Shown here: positions 2,561 through 27,985 of the stretch, piece after piece
Layout of the letters: the number at the start of each line of letters is the position of its first letter
Position numbering within the stretch: the stretch's first letter is position 1
Assembly: GCA_035507275.1 (NCBI GenBank)
Contig: DATJOG010000005.1
Location: 37,854-101,853, forward strand
Direction: 5' to 3'
Origin: Candidatus Acidiferrales bacterium
GTDB lineage: Bacteria > Vulcanimicrobiota > Vulcanimicrobiia > Vulcanimicrobiales > Vulcanimicrobiaceae
DNA length: 64,000 nucleotides
Translations under genes and position numbers: made by a program
The notes under the pieces: generated by a model
Told to the model about the DNA's origin: nothing
Databases searched by the model: none
Seen by the model: the letters and a program-made list of their open reading frames with translations, nothing else

Positions 2561-2598
2561 CGTCCCTCGACTACCTTGCGCTACGCTCGGGATGACAA
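2561..2598. repeat. single short-variant copy of the 'TCCCTCGACTAC...CTACGCTCGGGATGACA' repeat family
   Basis: CGTCCCTCGACTAC-CTTGCG-CTACGCTCGGGATGACAA matches both ends of the units in the 26728-27253 island. It spans the paaZ stop and the paaZ-paaA spacer. Confidence 0.8.
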
Positions 2599-23942: not shown

Positions 23943-25391
23943 ATGGGTTTCGAGGATCTTGCTCGCCGGGCGTTAGACACGGCGAGCGTTCGTGGCGCCC
24001 GCTACGCGGACATTCGATTCGAGAACGTGCGCAGCGAACGTATCGAGGTACGCAACGGAGTCGTGGCTTCGCTCGCGGACGCGCGGAGCGTGGGCTACGG
24101 CATTCGCGCCCTCGTCGACGGGGCGTGGGGATTCGCCGCCAGCAGTGACTGCACGCACGCCGGCATCGACGCGACCGCGGCGCGAGCGGTCGCGATCGCT
24201 CGCGCAAGCGCTTCGATCGCGCGCAACCGCTTCGGCGAACCGCCGCCGCACGCGTACGTCGATCGCTATCACACGCCGCTCGTGCGCGATCCGCAAGAGG
24301 TTCCGCTGGGCGAGCGCGTGGCGCTGCTCCTAGAAGCCGAGAAACTCGCGCGAGCGAGCGATCGCATCGCGGTCTCGCGCGCATGGCTCGATCTATGGCG
24401 CACGCAGAAGTGGTTCTACAGCACGATTGGTTCGGCGATCGAGCAAACGATCGTGCAGACCGGAAGCGGTGTCCAGGCGATGGCGATCGGCGACGGCGAC
24501 GTACAGACGCGCAGCTTTCCCGGCGACTACGGCCTCTACAAAAGCGGCGGATGGGAGATCGTCGAGGAGGCCGCGCTCACGGAAAACGCGCAGCGCATCG
24601 GAGAAGAGGCGACCGCGCTCCTTTCGGCCCCGCAATGCCCGAGCGGCACCTTCGACATCGTCTTGGGCGGCTCGCAGGTTTCGCTTCAGATTCACGAGTC
24701 GTGCGGTCATCCCGCCGAACTCGATCGCGTGATGGGCTGGGAGGCGAACTTCTCCGGCACCAGTTTTCTCGAGATCGGCGAGCTCGACAAATTACGCTAC
24801 GGTTCGCCCATCGTTACGATCGTGATCGACAACACGCTGCCGCACGGCATGTCGACCTGCGGATACGATGACGAGGGCACGAAGTCCGGAGTCTCCGATA
24901 TCGTGCGCGAAGGGGTGCTGCGCGGCTACGAGATGAGCAACGATACCGCGCGCGCCATCGGCCGCGAAAGCAACGCCTGCGTCCGCGCGCAGAGCTGGGA
25001 ATTCGTCCCGATGATCCGCATGTGCAATCTGAATCTGCTGCCCGGCGAGGTTCCTTTCGACGGTCTCTTCGACGGCGTGCGCGACGGGATCTATATGGAG
25101 AGCAACCGCTCGTGGTCGATCGACGACCGCCGCCTGAACTTTCAATTCGGCTGTCAGATCGGGTGGGAGATCAAGAACGGAAAACGCGGGCGGATGCTCA
25201 AGAATCCGACCTACGCCGGTATGACGCCGCAGTTTTGGAATTCGTGTGACGCGATCGCGGACGTGCGCTCGTGGAACGAGTGGGGAACGCCGAACTGCGG
25301 TAAGGGCGAACCGATGCAGACCGGACGCACGACCCAGGCTGCGTCGCCGGCGCGTTTTCGTAACGTCGACGTCGGAGTAGCGTACCAGTGA
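23943..25391 (+). CDS. tldD: TldD family metalloprotease
   Basis: 482 aa with the HExxxH motif HESCGHPAELDR and a conserved C-terminal GxC region (NCGKGEP). Confidence 0.85.
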   Translation: MGFEDLARRALDTASVRGARYADIRFENVRSERIEVRNGVVASLADARSVGYGIRALVDGAWGFAASSDCTHAGIDATAARAVAIARASASIARNRFGEPPPHAYVDRYHTPLVRDPQEVPLGERVALLLEAEKLARASDRIAVSRAWLDLWRTQKWFYSTIGSAIEQTIVQTGSGVQAMAIGDGDVQTRSFPGDYGLYKSGGWEIVEEAALTENAQRIGEEATALLSAPQCPSGTFDIVLGGSQVSLQIHESCGHPAELDRVMGWEANFSGTSFLEIGELDKLRYGSPIVTIVIDNTLPHGMSTCGYDDEGTKSGVSDIVREGVLRGYEMSNDTARAIGRESNACVRAQSWEFVPMIRMCNLNLLPGEVPFDGLFDGVRDGIYMESNRSWSIDDRRLNFQFGCQIGWEIKNGKRGRMLKNPTYAGMTPQFWNSCDAIADVRSWNEWGTPNCGKGEPMQTGRTTQAASPARFRNVDVGVAYQ

Positions 25392-26719
25392 ACGCCGGGG
25401 ATCGCGAAGCGCTGGCAAAACGCGCGCTCGCACGCTCGCGCGCCGATCAGACAGAGGTACGCGTCAGCAGCAGCGACGAGTCCTTGACGCGCTTTACGCA
25501 CGGCATTTCGAACCAGAACGTGGCCGCGGCCGACGTCGCGATCGCGGTACGCGCGATCGTCGACGGACGAACCGGCGTCGCGACGGCAAACGACGCGAGC
25601 GATGCGTCGATCGATGCGCTGCTCGATCGCGCGCGCGAAATGGCCTCGTTCGCGCCGCGCGACGACCTTCAACCCGCGCTGCCCGCCGGCGGGCCGGCGC
25701 CCGCACCCGCCGGCTGCTACGTGAACGCGACCGCCGCCGCCGATCCGCGTGCGCGCGCGTCGATCTGCGACGCAATCGTGACACGCGCCGAACGCTTCGG
25801 CTATTGGTGCGCGGGCTTCGTGTCGAGCGCAAGCGGCGGTACGACCATCGCAAACTCTTCCGGAGCGCTCGCTTCGTTTGACGGCACCGATGCGCAAGTA
25901 AACGTCAAAGTGACGGCCCCCGATTCGACCGGCTTTGCAGAACGCTATTCGACCGACATTGCAGATCTCGCCGGCGACGCGGTTGGCGAGCGCGCGGTCG
26001 AGAAGGCTCGGGCGAGCGCGCATCCTCGAGAAGTCGAACCGGGAACGTGGACCGTGATCCTGGAGCCCCCGGCCTTCGGCGAGCTCTTCGCCTATCTTCT
26101 CGGCCATTTCTCGGCGCAGAATTTCAGCGACGGCTCGTCGTTCTGTTCGCAGGGGTTGGACCGCACGTATTTCGACGAGCGCGTGAACGTCAGCGACGAC
26201 TACGCGAATCCGCTCGCACCGTCGATGCCCTTCGATTACGAGGGCCAACCCAAGATGCGCGTACCGCTCGTCGAAGCCGGCGTCGTGCGCAATATCGTCA
26301 CCGATAGTTACTACGCAAAGAAGCTCGACCGCCCGAACACCGGCCACGCGCTGCCTGCACCGAACACGTTCGGTCCGCAACCGCTCAATATCGTAATCGG
26401 AACTGGAACGCGCAGCACCGGCGAGCTGATCGCCGGCACGAAGCGCGGACTCCTGATCTCGCGCTTTTGGTACATTCGTCCAGTCGATCAGAAGCGCGCC
26501 ATCGTCACCGGCATGACGCGCGACGGCACGTTCCTGATCGAAGACGGCAAGATCACGGGCGGCGTGCGCAACATGCGCTTCAATCAGAGCATCGTCGAGG
26601 CGTTGGGCTCGGTCGAATTCTCGAACGTACAGCAGCGTACGGGCCAATACTCTTACTCGCTCGTCGTGCCCACTGCCAAAATCGAGAAGTTCACCTTTAC
26701 CAGCACCACGGAGTTCTAG
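25388..26719 (+). CDS. pmbA: PmbA/TldE family protein (TldD partner)
   Basis: 443 aa, paralogous to TldD but lacking HExxxH. The GTG start forms a GTGA overlap with the tldD stop. Confidence 0.8.
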   Translation: MNAGDREALAKRALARSRADQTEVRVSSSDESLTRFTHGISNQNVAAADVAIAVRAIVDGRTGVATANDASDASIDALLDRAREMASFAPRDDLQPALPAGGPAPAPAGCYVNATAAADPRARASICDAIVTRAERFGYWCAGFVSSASGGTTIANSSGALASFDGTDAQVNVKVTAPDSTGFAERYSTDIADLAGDAVGERAVEKARASAHPREVEPGTWTVILEPPAFGELFAYLLGHFSAQNFSDGSSFCSQGLDRTYFDERVNVSDDYANPLAPSMPFDYEGQPKMRVPLVEAGVVRNIVTDSYYAKKLDRPNTGHALPAPNTFGPQPLNIVIGTGTRSTGELIAGTKRGLLISRFWYIRPVDQKRAIVTGMTRDGTFLIEDGKITGGVRNMRFNQSIVEALGSVEFSNVQQRTGQYSYSLVVPTAKIEKFTFTSTTEF

Positions 26720-26727
26720 CGCTCCCC

Positions 26728-26886
26728 CTGTCATCCCGAGCGTAGCCCTGTCATCCCGAGCGTAGCGAACGCAGTGAGCGTAGTCGAGGGACCGCCATGT
26801 CATCCCGAGCGTAGCGAACGCAGTGAGCGTAGTCGAGGGACCGCCTGTCATCCCGAGCGTACGCGCGAAGCGCCGTAGTCGAGGGA
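26728..26886 (+). repeat. forward array of 3.5 tandem ~45-50-nt repeat units (TGTCATCCCGAGCGTA...GTAGTCGAGGGA)
   Basis: The units are at 26728-46 (truncated), 26747-96, 26797-845 and 26846-86. Units 2 and 3 share an identical 48-nt core. Unit 4 has a different middle (CGCGCGAAGCGCC). Confidence 0.9.
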
Positions 26887-27038
26887 GAACTCCACGGGCC
26901 GTTGCGAGGCGAAGGCTCGAAGTTTTGCGCCATTCGCAGGATGCGAACTTCCTTTGGTCGTGGCGCAAAACTCGCGCAGCAGGAGCGGCACAGGACGGGC
27001 CGCGACGAGCGTCTTCGCCGGCAACGGCCCGTGGAGCT
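26887..27038. other. unique, strongly self-complementary core of the repeat island (candidate structured RNA or MITE core)
   Basis: It contains nested inverted repeats: CTCCACGGGCCGTTGC (26890-905) with GCAACGGCCCGTGGAG (27021-36), GGCGAAG with CTTCGCC, GCTCG with CGAGC, and AGTTTTGCGCCA (26921-32) with TGGCGCAAAACT (26961-72). Confidence 0.6.
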
Positions 27039-27253
27039 TCCCTCGACTACGCTCACTGCGTTCGCTACGCTCGGGATGACATGGCGGTCCCTCGACTACG
27101 GCGCTTCGCGCCTACGCTCGGGATGACATGGGTATGCGTCCCTCGACTACGGCGCTTCGCGCCTACGCTCGGGATGACAGGCGGTCCCTCGACTACGGCG
27201 CTTCGCGCCTGCGCTCGGGATGACAGAGCGCGAGCCTACGCTCGGGATGACAG
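27039..27253 (-). repeat. inverted array of 4.5 units of the same repeat family
   Basis: The units are at 27039-82, 27083-129, 27130-80, 27181-226 and 27235-53 (truncated). All are reverse complements of the forward-array units. The last unit encodes the proC C-terminus and stop. Confidence 0.9.
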
Positions 27254-27985
27254 CGGCGAACCCGCGGCCAGCGCTGCTTTCATCAGCGTCGCGCGGAGTT
27301 TGCCGTCTTCGAGTTCCAGCAAACCGCGGATCGTGCGACCGGCGGGCGTCGTTACCTCGTGCTTGAGCGCGCCCGGGTGCGTTTCGCTTTCGAGTACCAG
27401 CCGTGCCGATCCGAGCACCGTTTGCGCGACCAGAATGCGCGCCTGTTCGTAGGGAATGCCCAGCGCGATCGCGGCGTCGATGAGTGCTTCCACCGCGACG
27501 AACACGAAGGCGGGGCCGCAGCCGCTGATTGCCGTCACGGCGTCCATCAACGACTCATCGAGTACCAGGGTGCGCCCAAGGGCGTCGAAGAGCTCGCGCG
27601 TGCGTTCCAGCGCAGCGTCGTCGCTCTCGCGGGTGCGCGCAAGCACGGTCATCGCCGACGCCACGCGAGCCGGGGTATTGGGCATCACGCGCACCACGCG
27701 GGCGCGATCCTGCGTCCACGCGCGCAGCGATCCGGTGTCGATCGCAGCCATTGCCGAGACCAGGACCTGATCGTCGCGCAAAACCGGCGCGATCTGCGCG
27801 CAGACCTCGGCGGCGTCGCGCGGCTTCACGCACACGACGACGACGTCGCTCGTCTCGGCCAGTTCGCAATTACGCGCAGAAGTCGCGCGCGTCGTCGCGT
27901 CGATCCCGCGCACGTGCGGATGGCGCTCGAATCCCCGCGCGAGCGCGCCTCCCAACGTTCCTCGTCCGATGATTCCGATTCGCAT
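27236..27985 (-). CDS. proC: pyrroline-5-carboxylate reductase
   Basis: The track ORF is trimmed to the ATG at 27985 (MRIGIIGRGTLGGALARG, Rossmann motif). It has VMPNTPA and a C-terminal dimerisation domain (VTTPAGRTIRGL). The final LSSRA and TAG stop come from a repeat unit. Confidence 0.85.
   Translation of the reverse strand: MRIGIIGRGTLGGALARGFERHPHVRGIDATTRATSARNCELAETSDVVVVCVKPRDAAEVCAQIAPVLRDDQVLVSAMAAIDTGSLRAWTQDRARVVRVMPNTPARVASAMTVLARTRESDDAALERTRELFDALGRTLVLDESLMDAVTAISGCGPAFVFVAVEALIDAAIALGIPYEQARILVAQTVLGSARLVLESETHPGALKHEVTTPAGRTIRGLLELEDGKLRATLMKAALAAGSPLSSRA

What the first reader, a model, noticed from the sequence alone, without database searches (positions are those of the whole stretch)
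26728..27253. 526-bp composite palindromic island: inverted arrays of a ~45-nt repeat flanking a nested-hairpin core
Seen in sequence: between the convergent pmbA and proC genes there are 3.5 tandem units (TGTCATCCCGAGCGTAGCGAACGCAGTGAGCGTAGTCGAGGGACCGCC; units 2 and 3 are identical), then a 152-nt unique core, then 4.5 units in reverse complement. Two sequence variants of the unit middle occur on both arms, GCGAACGCAGTGAGCG and CGCGCGAAGCGCCG. The outermost truncated half-units mirror each other. The core is built from at least four nested inverted repeats, including a 16-bp and a 12-bp perfect pair. The whole locus can therefore fold into one very long branched hairpin or cruciform.

Inference: it may be a REP/BIME-like or MITE-like element, a bidirectional terminator or mRNA stabiliser, or the gene for a highly structured small RNA. 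Spurious translations of these units ('RYARDD', 'LGMT') look familiar from hypothetical proteins in soil-bacterial bins (from memory, unverified). The family may therefore be widespread yet uncharacterised.
Basis: partly seen in the sequence, partly recalled or inferred. Interest (0 to 1): 0.65.

Follow-up and report, generated by a model that had tools for sequence, protein, structure and literature searches.

The report
Nested hairpin-repeat island between convergent genes
The 526-bp palindromic island is real and is one copy of a recurring, insertion-polymorphic mosaic repeat of soil Eremiobacterota: a folded ~110-nt core, absent from the RNA family library searched, sits between inverted arrays of a small hairpin repeat that occurs almost unchanged in at least a dozen bacterial phyla.

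Summary
The island is not unique. The same architecture (inverted hairpin units, a variable outer stem, a conserved core) recurs at other loci of the same contig and metagenome, and in other Eremiobacterota genomes. Close relatives have only a 30-110 nt pmbA-proC spacer, so the island is an insertion.

It has three nested layers:
- A 25-48 nt hairpin unit (TGTCA-TCCC-GA-GCGTAG...GA-GGGA). Its 17-mer occurs exactly in at least 12 phyla.
- Small GNA-triloop mini-hairpins at the unit's apex.
- A ~110-nt three-way-junction core in three sequence subfamilies. 24 of 47 pairs show compensatory changes, and G.U outnumbers A.C 24:3, so one strand folds.

The core also sits in the nuoD-nuoE spacer of three genomes. 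There it is inverted between two genomes with 99% identical NuoD, and it is absent from a more distant relative. Nothing matches in Rfam. No target duplication, transposase or plasmid copy was found, and the motif did not turn up in the literature searches.

Best reading: a REP/BIME-like, non-autonomous mosaic repeat that probably propagates through a single-stranded intermediate. Effects on mRNA 3' ends are likely incidental. A functional RNA core is not excluded. Unit copy numbers differ among three assemblies and cannot be trusted.

The parts
25388..26719 (+). pmbA/tldE-type gene (left flank). Its own TAG stop lies 9 nt before the island.
   Evidence: PF01523, PF19290 and PF19289. The exact protein is on two ENA contigs.
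26729..26748 (+). Left outermost truncated half unit (TGTCATCCCGAGCGTAGCCC)
26749..26796 (+). Left unit 1, tip variant v1 (GTAG-CGAACGCAGTGAGC-GTAG)
26798..26845 (+). Left unit 2, identical to unit 1
   Evidence: D4, 98% including the junction base
26846..26886 (+). Left unit 3, tip variant v2 (GC-rich mini-hairpin GCGCGAAGCGC with a GAA triloop)
   Evidence: (I5)
26890..26905 (+). 5' arm of the core's outer stem P0. The sequence differs between genomes, but the arms stay largely complementary in all of them.
   Evidence: (I23), 44, 83, 91: 9 of 10 P0 pairs show compensatory changes.
26910..27017 (+). Conserved inner core, a three-way junction: P1; P2 with hairpin P2a (loop AGGAU); P3 (loop ACAGGAC). 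The modelled (+) strand is the one that folds best.
27021..27036 (+). 3' arm of outer stem P0
27039..27081 (-). Right unit 1, tip v1
   Evidence: (I1, I3)
27083..27128 (-). Right unit 2, tip v2
   Evidence: D1
27134..27179 (-). Right unit 3, tip v2
   Evidence: D1
27180..27225 (-). Right unit 4, tip v2
   Evidence: D1
27231..27253 (-). Right outermost half unit. Its TAG (27236-27238 on the - strand) is the stop codon of proC, whose product ends ...LSSRA*.
   Evidence: (D2)
27236..27985 (-). proC (pyrroline-5-carboxylate reductase), right flank, convergent with pmbA
   Evidence: (PF03807, PF14748)
2562..2597 (-). Solitary short unit (TGTCATCCCGAGCGTAG-CGCAAG-GTAGTCGAGGGAC) between a paaZ-like and a paaA-like gene. 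Its TAG is the stop codon of the upstream gene.

Best explanation
The island is one copy of a REP/BIME-like mosaic repeat family of Eremiobacterota (Vulcanimicrobiota). It is non-coding and non-autonomous, and it lodged between the convergent pmbA and proC genes. Afterwards its terminal hairpin units were amplified in tandem.

Anatomy (shown). There are three nested palindromic layers.
1. The hairpin unit TGTCA-TCCC-GA-GC(GTA)GC-GA-GGGA has tandem G.A pairs and a GNA triloop. It acts as the inverted terminal repeat.
2. Extra mini-hairpins, mostly with GNA triloops, sit at the unit's apex between two GTAG copies.
3. A ~110-nt three-way-junction core sits at the apex of the long palindrome formed by the inverted units plus a fast-evolving outer stem.

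Behaviour (shown). The element is present or absent at orthologous sites. It occurs at several loci per genome. It is found in either orientation relative to host genes, and the segment carrying it has inverted between close relatives. It has no target-site duplication. It avoids divergent (promoter) spacers.

Mechanism (inferred). The mismatches are strand-specific (G.U far more common than A.C; G.A rather than C.T), and the hairpins are of the DNA-type GNA kind. Together these indicate that one particular strand folds during the element's own life cycle. The most likely form is a single-stranded DNA intermediate handled in trans by an HUH/Y1 (RAYT-like) or similar enzyme encoded elsewhere in the genome. 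Array length then changes by slippage or unequal recombination, and the flanking inverted repeats promote inversion.

Effect on the host (inferred by analogy with E. coli REP/BIME). When transcribed from the convergent genes, the stacked stem-loops would block 3' exonucleases or pause RNA polymerase. That is a side effect, not the reason the element exists.
For: - Multi-copy composite: copies of the core with flanking inverted units occur in L093, L096, L175, L177 (two), L178 (two) and L189, besides the window.
- A covariance-model search of about 1.7 Mb finds only discrete copies: 139-170 bits for complete copies of subfamily 1, 72 bits for one cut by a contig end, and one divergent copy at 46 bits.
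- Insertion polymorphism: of the 32 pmbA relatives examined, 18 also carry proC; in 17 of these it lies within about 110 nt of pmbA (L132 has about 1.8 kb between them), and none carries units in that spacer. The 11 spacers read hold no units or core. L123 (empty) contrasts with L124 (core) in the same metagenome.
- In L193/L194, nuoD and nuoE overlap (TAATG). L176, L191 and L192 instead carry a spacer of about 135-370 nt between the two genes that holds the core.
- Inversion: between L191 and L192 (NuoD 99% identical, flanks 92% collinear) the ~290-nt spacer is inverted. The core is + in the window but - in L124 and L144 relative to pmbA.
- Location: all unit-flanked islands with called genes on both sides (window, L175, L177a, both in L178) lie between convergent genes; L093's flanking stop codons read the same way. 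The family-wide test gave ++ 10, -- 9, convergent 13, divergent 1.
- No TSD at L093, L175 or the window.
- Strand asymmetry: 24 G.U against 3 A.C cells. As RNA, the + strand is more stable in 9 of 9 aligned copies and in each of the window, L189, L144 and L191 copies.
- GNA triloops in 15 of 24 distinct tips. 14 of 24 tips form perfect hairpins of 4-7 bp.
- Array lengths differ among three assemblies while the core is identical.
Against: - No cognate enzyme was found. There is no transposase or Y1 gene in the annotated parts of the window or next to any island. Only two Y1_Tnp-like ORFs occur in 120 unit-bearing loci, and neither is flanked by units.
- The inner core is about 90-96% identical between genomes whose PmbA proteins are about 80% identical, while the adjacent outer stem is completely different. 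The nuo copy persists across NuoD 76% identity. This pattern fits purifying selection on a functional RNA at least as well as recent spread.
- The near-identical 17-27-mer in at least 12 phyla is unlike classical REPs, which are lineage-specific.
- GTAG lies inside the hairpin, not at its foot as in RAYT-type REPs.
- G.U asymmetry cannot separate RNA from single-stranded DNA.
- No transcript data are available.
Confidence: 0.5

Rival explanations
1. The core is a functional structured RNA: a small RNA gene or a cis-acting RNA module. One possibility is a protein sponge or binding platform that presents GGA motifs in hairpin loops, as CsrB/RsmZ-type RNAs do. The flanking hairpin arrays would then serve as protective or terminating stem-loops, or simply mark a landing site.
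For: - Three sequence subfamilies (window type, L189, L144) share one three-way-junction fold.
- 24 of 47 pairs show compensatory changes, against 10 +/- 1.8 in shuffles and 6-9 in slid controls. 96% of cells are paired.
- G.U outnumbers A.C 24:3.
- Unpaired nucleotides are conserved: the P2a loop xGGAx is invariant (CAGGAUG is the CsrB repeat, from my own knowledge); AACUUC follows it in 11 of the 12 aligned copies and reads AAUUC in L144; the P3 loop is mostly AGGAC.
- The inner core is much better conserved than neighbouring proteins and the outer stem.
- It is retained in the nuoD-nuoE spacer across 76% NuoD identity, and the nuoE Shine-Dalgarno GGGAG lies in the 3' arm of P0.
- There is no Rfam match, so it would be new.
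Against: - No promoter-like site lies in or beside the island.
- Orientation relative to host transcription is not conserved (window against L124 and L144; L191 against L192), so it cannot be a sense-strand cis element of the flanking genes.
- It is present or absent between close relatives and occurs several times per genome, almost always inside palindromic repeat arrays. That is typical of mobile repeats.
- The P3-loop GGA is replaced by CGA in 4 copies.
- No csrA gene was found in the DNA held here, although the sample is too small to be informative.
- Palindromic DNA can keep its arms complementary without any RNA function.
Confidence: 0.27
2. The island acts at the DNA level. A long cruciform-forming palindrome and its hairpin arrays between convergent genes would act as a binding platform for nucleoid proteins or gyrase, or as a buffer of supercoiling and of transcription-replication conflict. 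This is what has been proposed for BIMEs.
For: - The island can fold into a near-perfect 540-nt hairpin, including a 62-nt perfect inverted repeat.
- It prefers convergent spacers and avoids divergent ones.
- Units show no sense or antisense bias in co-directional spacers, 10 against 9.
Against: - A function of duplex or cruciform DNA should be strand-symmetric. The mismatches are strongly strand-asymmetric instead: G.U 24 against A.C 3, and tandem G.A on one strand only.
- The core also sits in a co-directional operon spacer.
- No IHF-type consensus was noticed when reading the core, though none was searched for formally. Protein binding cannot be tested here.
Confidence: 0.12
3. The island is an assembly artefact: a chimeric or mis-traversed repeat graph produced the inverted arrays.
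For: - Three assemblies of the same locus give three different unit counts.
- The contig that carries the window's genes in one of those assemblies (k141_1542786) ends in another island.
- Long arrays are seen only in short-read assemblies. Long-read contigs (L096, L175, L191) show single units.
Against: - The architecture and the core are identical in three independent assemblies.
- The same layout recurs in JGI, ENA and NCBI data from different samples and assemblers, including a complete long-read chromosome.
- The different junction types (half unit to v1, v1 to v1, v1 to v2, unit to core) each require real reads.
Confidence: 0.03

Closest known systems
REP sequences and BIMEs (bacterial interspersed mosaic elements) of enterobacteria and pseudomonads, including REP clusters reiterated in tandem (Di Nocera et al. 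2013, PMC3733652)
   Same: - Short imperfect-palindrome repeats outside genes, clustered at gene 3' ends and between convergent genes.
- Mosaic clusters in which inverted repeats flank a conserved central motif (as in BIME-1 / RIP: REP - L motif - REP).
- Variable copy number and no target duplication.
- A GTAG tetranucleotide is present.
- REPs are known to stabilise upstream mRNA.
   Different: - Here the arms are direct tandem arrays, not alternating orientations.
- GTAG lies in the apical loop or flanks the tip, not at the hairpin foot.
- The central element is a 110-150 nt three-way junction, not a 30-nt IHF site.
- The unit's sequence is conserved across phyla, whereas REPs are lineage-specific.
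- No RAYT was found.
REPINs (inverted REP doublets mobilised by RAYT; Bertels & Rainey 2011, PMC3116915)
   Same: - Two inverted hairpin repeats with a spacer form one long hairpin.
- Non-autonomous, tens to hundreds of copies, no TSD.
- About 30% of family members elsewhere occur as such doublets: 40 of 134 matches have an inverted partner within 160 nt.
   Different: - REPIN-RAYT systems are described as vertically inherited and genus-specific.
- This unit is found in at least 12 phyla.
- The Eremiobacterota version carries a large conserved cargo, the core.
- A RAYT association was tested and not found.
ERIC/IRU and Correia (NEMIS) elements: 100-150 bp palindromic interspersed repeats
   Same: - Size and a long imperfect palindrome.
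- Intergenic and transcribed locations, present or absent at orthologous sites, either orientation.
- High sequence conservation between species without a known transposase (ERIC).
- Effects on mRNA processing are documented.
   Different: - ERIC and Correia elements fold as single hairpins and create TA duplications (from my own knowledge).
- The core here is a three-way junction with covarying stems, in three subfamilies.
- It is embedded in arrays of a second repeat family.
- No TSD.
d(GCGNAGC) extraordinarily stable DNA mini-hairpins (Hirao and co-workers; from my own knowledge)
   Same: The unit apex GCGTAGC and the short tips GCGAAGC, GCGCAGC and GCGGAGC are exact instances. 15 of 24 tips have GNA triloops.
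   Different: This is a structural motif, not a genetic element. Its use here as the apex of a genomic repeat is an observation, not a known system.
CsrB/RsmZ-type protein-sponge RNAs
   Same: GGA motifs are presented in hairpin loops (CAGGAUG in P2a, CAGGACG in P3 of the window copy).
   Different: - Only two sites, against roughly 4-22 in known sponge RNAs (from my own knowledge).
- The second site is not conserved.
- Multi-copy and mobile-like.
- Presence of CsrA in these genomes was not established.

Membership tests
REP / REPIN-RAYT system | Short imperfect palindromic repeat, extragenic, many copies per genome | tested here: met
   - Units of 25-48 nt, 10 in the window against 0.21 expected.
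- Further islands on the same contig and in the same metagenome.
- Whole-genome copy number is not known. 249 kb of relatives' DNA holds none.
REP / REPIN-RAYT system | Conserved GTAG (or CGTC) tag at the foot of the hairpin | tested here: inconclusive
   GTAG is invariant, but it forms the apical GNA loop of the short unit. In the long unit it is duplicated on both sides of the tip hairpin. The tip alone (GTAG + GC hairpin) does look REP-like.
REP / REPIN-RAYT system | Occurrence as inverted doublets forming one long hairpin | tested here: met
   40 of 134 matches in 120 genome loci have an inverted partner within 160 nt. All islands have inverted arms.
REP / REPIN-RAYT system | Cognate RAYT (Y1 HUH) gene flanked by the repeats | tested here: inconclusive
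   - None in the window or beside any island.
- Y1_Tnp ORFs occur in L069 (E 1e-12) and weakly in L038, but are not flanked by units.
- Whole genomes could not be scanned.
BIME | Cluster of REPs in alternating orientation, separated by a small set of conserved linker motifs | tested here: not met
   Each arm is a head-to-tail array in one orientation. Only one switch of orientation occurs, across the core.
BIME | Binding of IHF, gyrase or Pol I | not testable with these tools
   No binding data are available.
MITE (DDE transposase type) | Terminal inverted repeats | tested here: met
   The units are inverted at both ends of every composite.
MITE (DDE transposase type) | Target-site duplication flanking the element | tested here: not met
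   No direct repeat at the ends in the window, L093 or L175. The flanks merely extend the palindrome by 2 nt.
MITE (DDE transposase type) | Autonomous IS with the same ends | tested here: inconclusive
   - The one pair of inverted units several kb apart (3.5 kb, L025) encloses housekeeping genes.
- No plasmid match.
- No exhaustive search was possible.
Intrinsic (Rho-independent) terminator | GC-rich hairpin directly followed by a U-tract | tested here: not met
   The only terminator-like hit inside the island is the weak 6-bp P2a hairpin. No U-tract follows the arms or the outer stem. The core also lies inside the nuo operon.
Any Rfam 15 family | Covariance-model score at or above the gathering threshold | tested here: not met
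   - No hit in the window.
- Nothing relevant at E <= 10 in the island.
- No hit on a unit or core (one tRNA only) in 18 unit-bearing loci.
- No hit for subfamilies 2 and 3.
CRISPR array | Direct repeats separated by unique spacers of about 25-40 nt, in one orientation | tested here: not met
   The variable parts are 6-16 nt self-complementary tips of only two kinds, and there are two opposed arrays.
CsrA-binding sponge RNA | Several GGA motifs in hairpin loops, and csrA in the genome | tested here: inconclusive
   The P2a loop GGA is invariant; the P3 loop is GGA or CGA. No csrA was seen in the DNA held here, which is too small a sample.
Inverton (phase-variable invertible segment) | IR-bounded segment found in both orientations, carrying a promoter, with a nearby invertase | tested here: inconclusive
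   Both orientations are seen between close relatives. There is no promoter-like site in the window's island (the nuo spacers were not scanned) and no recombinase gene nearby. Heterogeneity within one population was not testable.

The most novel reading that the evidence does not exclude
The ~110-nt core is a new class of strand-specifically folded functional nucleic acid. Either it is a structured non-coding RNA (two loop-presented GGA motifs suggest a protein-binding RNA) that rides on, or is insulated by, hairpin-repeat arrays. Or it is the recognition module of a previously undescribed single-strand transposition system that targets the apical loops of hairpins. In parallel, the 17-27-nt hairpin unit conserved across at least 12 phyla would be recognised by a widely shared, still unidentified protein.
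Probability: 0.3. Interest if true: 0.8.

Novelty: new variant of a known kind. Interest (0 to 1): 0.58.

Why it matters
- Eremiobacterota are abundant, mostly uncultured soil and peat bacteria, and I know of no description of their repeats.
- This locus exposes two things absent from Rfam; the unit's motif also did not turn up in the full-text searches of the paper library. The first is a hairpin module whose sequence is almost frozen across at least a dozen phyla. The second is a covariation-supported three-way-junction element that moves, inverts and sits even inside the nuo operon.
- If the unit has a dedicated enzyme, it would be one of the most widely spread repeat systems in bacteria.
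- If the core is a functional RNA, it is a new family.
- Practically, these islands break short-read assemblies. They supply stop codons and C-terminal residues (SSRA*) to neighbouring genes. They also generate spurious ORFs and wrong start codons, for example a NuoE extended to 360 aa.

Tried and rejected
- **Rfam.** Searched at the gathering threshold on the whole window, at the permissive threshold on the island, on subfamilies 2 and 3, and on 18 unit-bearing loci. Nothing relevant.
- **Literature.** Full-text searches for the motif in several forms returned only unrelated primers. Searches on Eremiobacterota plus repeat or palindrome found nothing relevant. The supplements of the GTAG/CGTC REP survey do not contain the motif.
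- **Plasmids.** No match to the unit.
- **Viral contigs.** The unit occurs in 9 of 2.9 million contigs and the core in none, so phage carriage is not the explanation.
- **Spurious proteins.** The translated right arm found no protein.
- **RAYT.** A motif scan of all held DNA found two Y1-like ORFs, neither flanked by units.
- **Autonomous element.** The inverted units 3.5 kb apart in L025 enclose housekeeping genes.
- **Sense-strand 3'-UTR element.** Two orientation tests gave no sense bias: 27 against 16 with crude ORF calls, and 10 against 9 with GC-frame calls.
- **Empty palindromes.** I looked for outer stems without a core, to show insertion into a hairpin loop. None was found in the DNA held here.
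- **Thermodynamic signal of single units.** It is weak (z from -1.5 to +1.3), because nearest-neighbour models do not credit tandem G.A pairs or GNA loops.
- **CRISPR, attC, riboswitch and classical terminator readings.** CRISPR and a classical terminator fail their defining features (see the membership table); attC and riboswitch were set aside on anatomy alone.
- **Chance near-match.** Window 63598 lies in coding sequence and is not a unit.
Full report
**1. Observation**

The sequence at 26729-27253 is exactly as described.

- Left arm (+): a half unit, two identical 48-nt units and a third unit with a different middle.
- Core: 152 nt, 26887-27038.
- Right arm (-): four units and a half unit.
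- The 17-mer TGTCATCCCGAGCGTAG has 10 matches in the window (up to 3 mismatches allowed; 8 exact) against 0.21 expected. Nine lie in the island. One lies in a solitary short unit at 2562-2597.
- The core folds at -93.2 kcal/mol, z = -7.8.
- The whole island folds as one branched hairpin, -241.7 kcal/mol as DNA, z = -22.
- The flanks are a pmbA/tldE-type gene and proC, convergent. The last half unit overlaps the end of proC.

**2. Not an artefact, but copy number is unreliable**

The identical PmbA protein is encoded on two other ENA contigs. Both have the same core and layout, but 2 or 4.5 left units and 7.5 right units. Long arrays are seen only in short-read assemblies. Long-read contigs show the same architecture with single units.

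**3. The island is an insertion**

- 52 metagenomic relatives of pmbA were fetched.
- 32 relatives were examined. 18 of them also carry proC, and in 17 it lies within about 110 nt of pmbA; L132 has about 1.8 kb between the two genes. None carries units in that spacer.
- The 11 spacers read hold no units or core; L130 keeps a possible decayed right arm of a unit.
- L123 (empty) and L124 (core-like element directly after pmbA, in the opposite orientation) come from the same metagenome.

**4. The hairpin unit is a cross-phylum family**

- The loci come from Acidobacteriota, Alpha- and Gammaproteobacteria, Eremiobacterota, Gemmatimonadota, Verrucomicrobiota, Bacteroidota, Firmicutes, Patescibacteria, Bdellovibrionota, Binatota and Desulfobacterota. 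They include isolates (Reyranella, Vineibacter, Pseudoxanthomonas, Fulvivirga).
- About 70 chance matches to a 17-mer are expected in 596 Gb. However, 111 of 134 matches continue with the right arm (C/T/CC)CGAGGGA, and 40 have an inverted partner within 160 nt. The family is therefore real.
- The commonest form is TGTCA-TCCC-GA-GC(GTA)GC-GA-GGGA-YC: a hairpin with tandem G.A pairs and a GNA triloop.
- The long form seen in the window (GTAG-tip-GTAG-TCGAGGGAC) is found mostly in Eremiobacterota/Vulcanimicrobiota MAGs, which places the window in that phylum.
- There are 24 distinct tips. 14 form perfect 4-7 bp hairpins, and 15 have GNA triloops. The shortest tips (GCGAAGC, GCGCAGC, GCGGAGC) are d(GCGNAGC) mini-hairpins.
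- Nearest-neighbour folding gives single units no significant score, as expected for non-canonical pairs.

**5. The core is a family too, and the composite recurs**

- blastn and nhmmer found the inner ~110 nt at 90-96% identity in L096 (a complete Eremiobacterota chromosome), L093 and L124.
- Using the six-frame translation of the core as a protein query recovered four spurious ORFs. Through them came L175-L178.
- Composites found:
  - L175: unit - core - unit.
  - L177 and L178: two loci each with 3-8 units on either side of a core.
  - L176: a core without units, between nuoD and nuoE.
- L177 is from the same sample as L122.
- A covariance model searched over all held DNA finds only these copies: 139-170 bits for complete ones and 72 bits for one cut by a contig end. 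The single exception is a divergent copy of 46 bits.
- That divergent copy (L189 43-193) lies on the contig that carries the window's genes in another assembly (k141_1542786), 80-395 nt past the point where the window ends. It is again flanked by inverted units, and the contig ends there.
- A third, AT-richer subfamily sits downstream of pmbA in a 59% relative (L144).
- All three subfamilies fold into the same three-way junction.

**6. Structure and strand**

- On 12 copies, 96% of cells are paired.
- 24 of 47 pairs carry compensatory double changes, against 10 +/- 1.8 in shuffles and 6-9 in slid controls. All five helices are supported. The alignment was fitted to the model, which favours it.
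- The inner helices are invariant within subfamily 1. The outer stem differs completely between genomes yet remains largely paired (93-94% of cells).
- G.U cells outnumber A.C cells 24:3, or 14:3 without one invariant column.
- As RNA, the modelled strand is more stable than its complement in 9 of 9 aligned copies and in each of the window, L189, L144 and L191 copies.
- One specific strand therefore folds. This cannot tell RNA from single-stranded DNA.
- Conserved unpaired positions include the P2a loop xGGAx (CAGGAUG in most copies) and AACUUC, which reads AAUUC in L144. The P3 loop is AGGAC, ACGAG or ACGAC.

**7. Behaviour**

- All unit-flanked islands with called genes on both sides (window, L175, L177a and both in L178) lie between convergent genes. 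L093's flanking stop codons read the same way.
- Family-wide, single-orientation unit clusters in GC-rich loci fall as: sense co-directional 10, antisense 9, convergent 13, divergent 1. There is no sense bias, but promoter spacers are avoided.
- No target duplication is seen.
- In the nuo operon, nuoD and nuoE overlap (TAATG) in L193/L194. L176, L191 and L192 instead carry a spacer of about 135-370 nt between the two genes that holds the core.
- Between L191 and L192 (NuoD 99% identical, flanks 92% collinear) the ~290-nt spacer is inverted.
- The core's orientation relative to pmbA also differs between the window and L124 or L144.
- No transposase or Y1 gene lies near any island or in the annotated parts of the window. 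Two Y1-like ORFs in 120 loci are not flanked by units.

**8. Interpretation**

The data fit a REP/BIME-like, non-autonomous mosaic repeat. Its inverted hairpin units behave as ends. It carries a structured core. It inserts into, or survives in, 3' spacers. It inverts through its own inverted repeats, and it expands by slippage.

The strand-specific mismatches and DNA-type GNA hairpins point to a single-stranded intermediate. A RAYT-like HUH enzyme acting in trans is the best analogy, but none was found.

Two features are not explained by that model alone:
- the near-invariance of the inner core next to a freely evolving outer stem, together with its retention in the nuo spacer;
- the cross-phylum constancy of the unit.

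Both keep a functional-RNA or host-factor reading alive (about 0.3).

A classical terminator role is unlikely: there are no U-tracts, and the core is tolerated inside nuo in both orientations. A purely duplex-DNA role conflicts with the strand asymmetry.

**9. Comparison and novelty**

- Closest known: REP clusters and BIMEs, REPINs, ERIC and Correia elements.
- The defining features of RAYT systems (foot GTAG, flanking RAYT), of MITEs (TSD) and of BIMEs (alternating orientation) are not met or are inconclusive. I therefore describe it as working like a REP/BIME mosaic, without filing it as a member.
- Nothing matches in Rfam 15, and the motif did not appear in the literature searches.
- I rate it a new variant of a known kind, of moderate to high interest.

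Noticed in passing
window 27236-27253 (-), window 2581-2597 (-), L189 299-316 (-): Three genes read into a unit in the same frame and use the TAG of its GTAG as stop codon, so their products all end in ...SSRA*. The genes are proC, a paaZ-like aldehyde dehydrogenase/MaoC gene, and a beta-eliminating lyase gene on the contig that carries the window's genes in another assembly. ProC alignments with relatives stop 6-13 residues before the end, which suggests the repeat replaced the native C-terminus.
   Followed up: partly
L001-L120 (genome-contig scan): The exact 17-mer TGTCATCCCGAGCGTAG, usually followed by CGAGGGAYC, occurs in at least 12 bacterial phyla, including cultured isolates. That degree of sequence constancy is unusual for a REP-like repeat.
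   Followed up: partly
L191 11165-11503, L192 5222-5588, L176 10002-10280, L193 5213-5217: A spacer holding the core has been inserted between nuoD and nuoE, about 340-370 nt in L191 and L192 and about 135 nt upstream of the core in L176. The two genes overlap as TAATG in a more distant relative. The spacer is inverted between two genomes with 99% identical NuoD. In L176 and L191 the nuoE Shine-Dalgarno GGGAG lies in the 3' arm of the core's outer stem.
   Followed up: partly
L189 1-316 (the contig carrying the window's genes in another assembly; about 80-395 nt past the point where the window ends): A second island holds a divergent core subfamily (46 bits to the model). It has one v1 unit on the left and three identical short-tip units on the right. 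The contig ends in this island, so these repeats break short-read assemblies.
   Followed up: yes
L144 1493-1634 (-): A third, AT-rich subfamily of the core lies downstream of pmbA in a 59% relative, without flanking units. The pmbA-proC spacer thus hosts a core-family element in three lineages and in two orientations.
   Followed up: partly
window 26933-26947 and 26986-27004: Both apical loops of the core present GGA (CAGGAUG and CAGGACG), which matches the CsrB/RsmZ repeat motif bound by CsrA. The first is invariant in all subfamilies and the second is variable. No csrA gene was seen in the DNA held here.
   Followed up: partly
L126 10100-10150, L127 8087-8140, L128, L129: Relatives without the island carry a different pair of small hairpins in the pmbA-proC spacer: GGATTCAGC-TTC-GCTGAATC, then TGTAGCG-TTCGGCCC-TTC-GGGCCGA. 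This may be another local repeat or a terminator.
   Followed up: no
L132 11329-13142: In one relative (77% PmbA identity) about 1.8 kb lies between pmbA and proC instead of fewer than 110 nt. The content was not examined.
   Followed up: no
window 26887-27038; P0001-P0004; L176 10001-11083: All six reading frames of the core are open. Annotation pipelines have called spurious ORFs over copies of it, including a NuoE extended at its N-terminus to 360 aa across the core.
   Followed up: yes
window 23943-25391 and 25388-26719: Two adjacent TldD/PmbA-family paralogues overlap by 4 nt (a tldD-tldE pair) directly upstream of the island.
   Followed up: no
L130 1380-1410; L125 8320-8345: Possible decayed fragments of the unit (CGAGCGTGGTCGAGGGACCG; TCCCGAGGCG) sit in the short pmbA-proC spacers of relatives. 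This hints at older occupation of the site.
   Followed up: no
window, L177a, L178b, L093, L175: Relative to the core's folded strand, the inner left unit carries a GC-hairpin tip and the inner right unit the v1 tip (CGAACGCAGTGAGC), in four independent subfamily-1 composites. L175 agrees on the right side only; its left unit has no tip. The whole composite, and not only its parts, therefore has a conserved polarity.
   Followed up: partly
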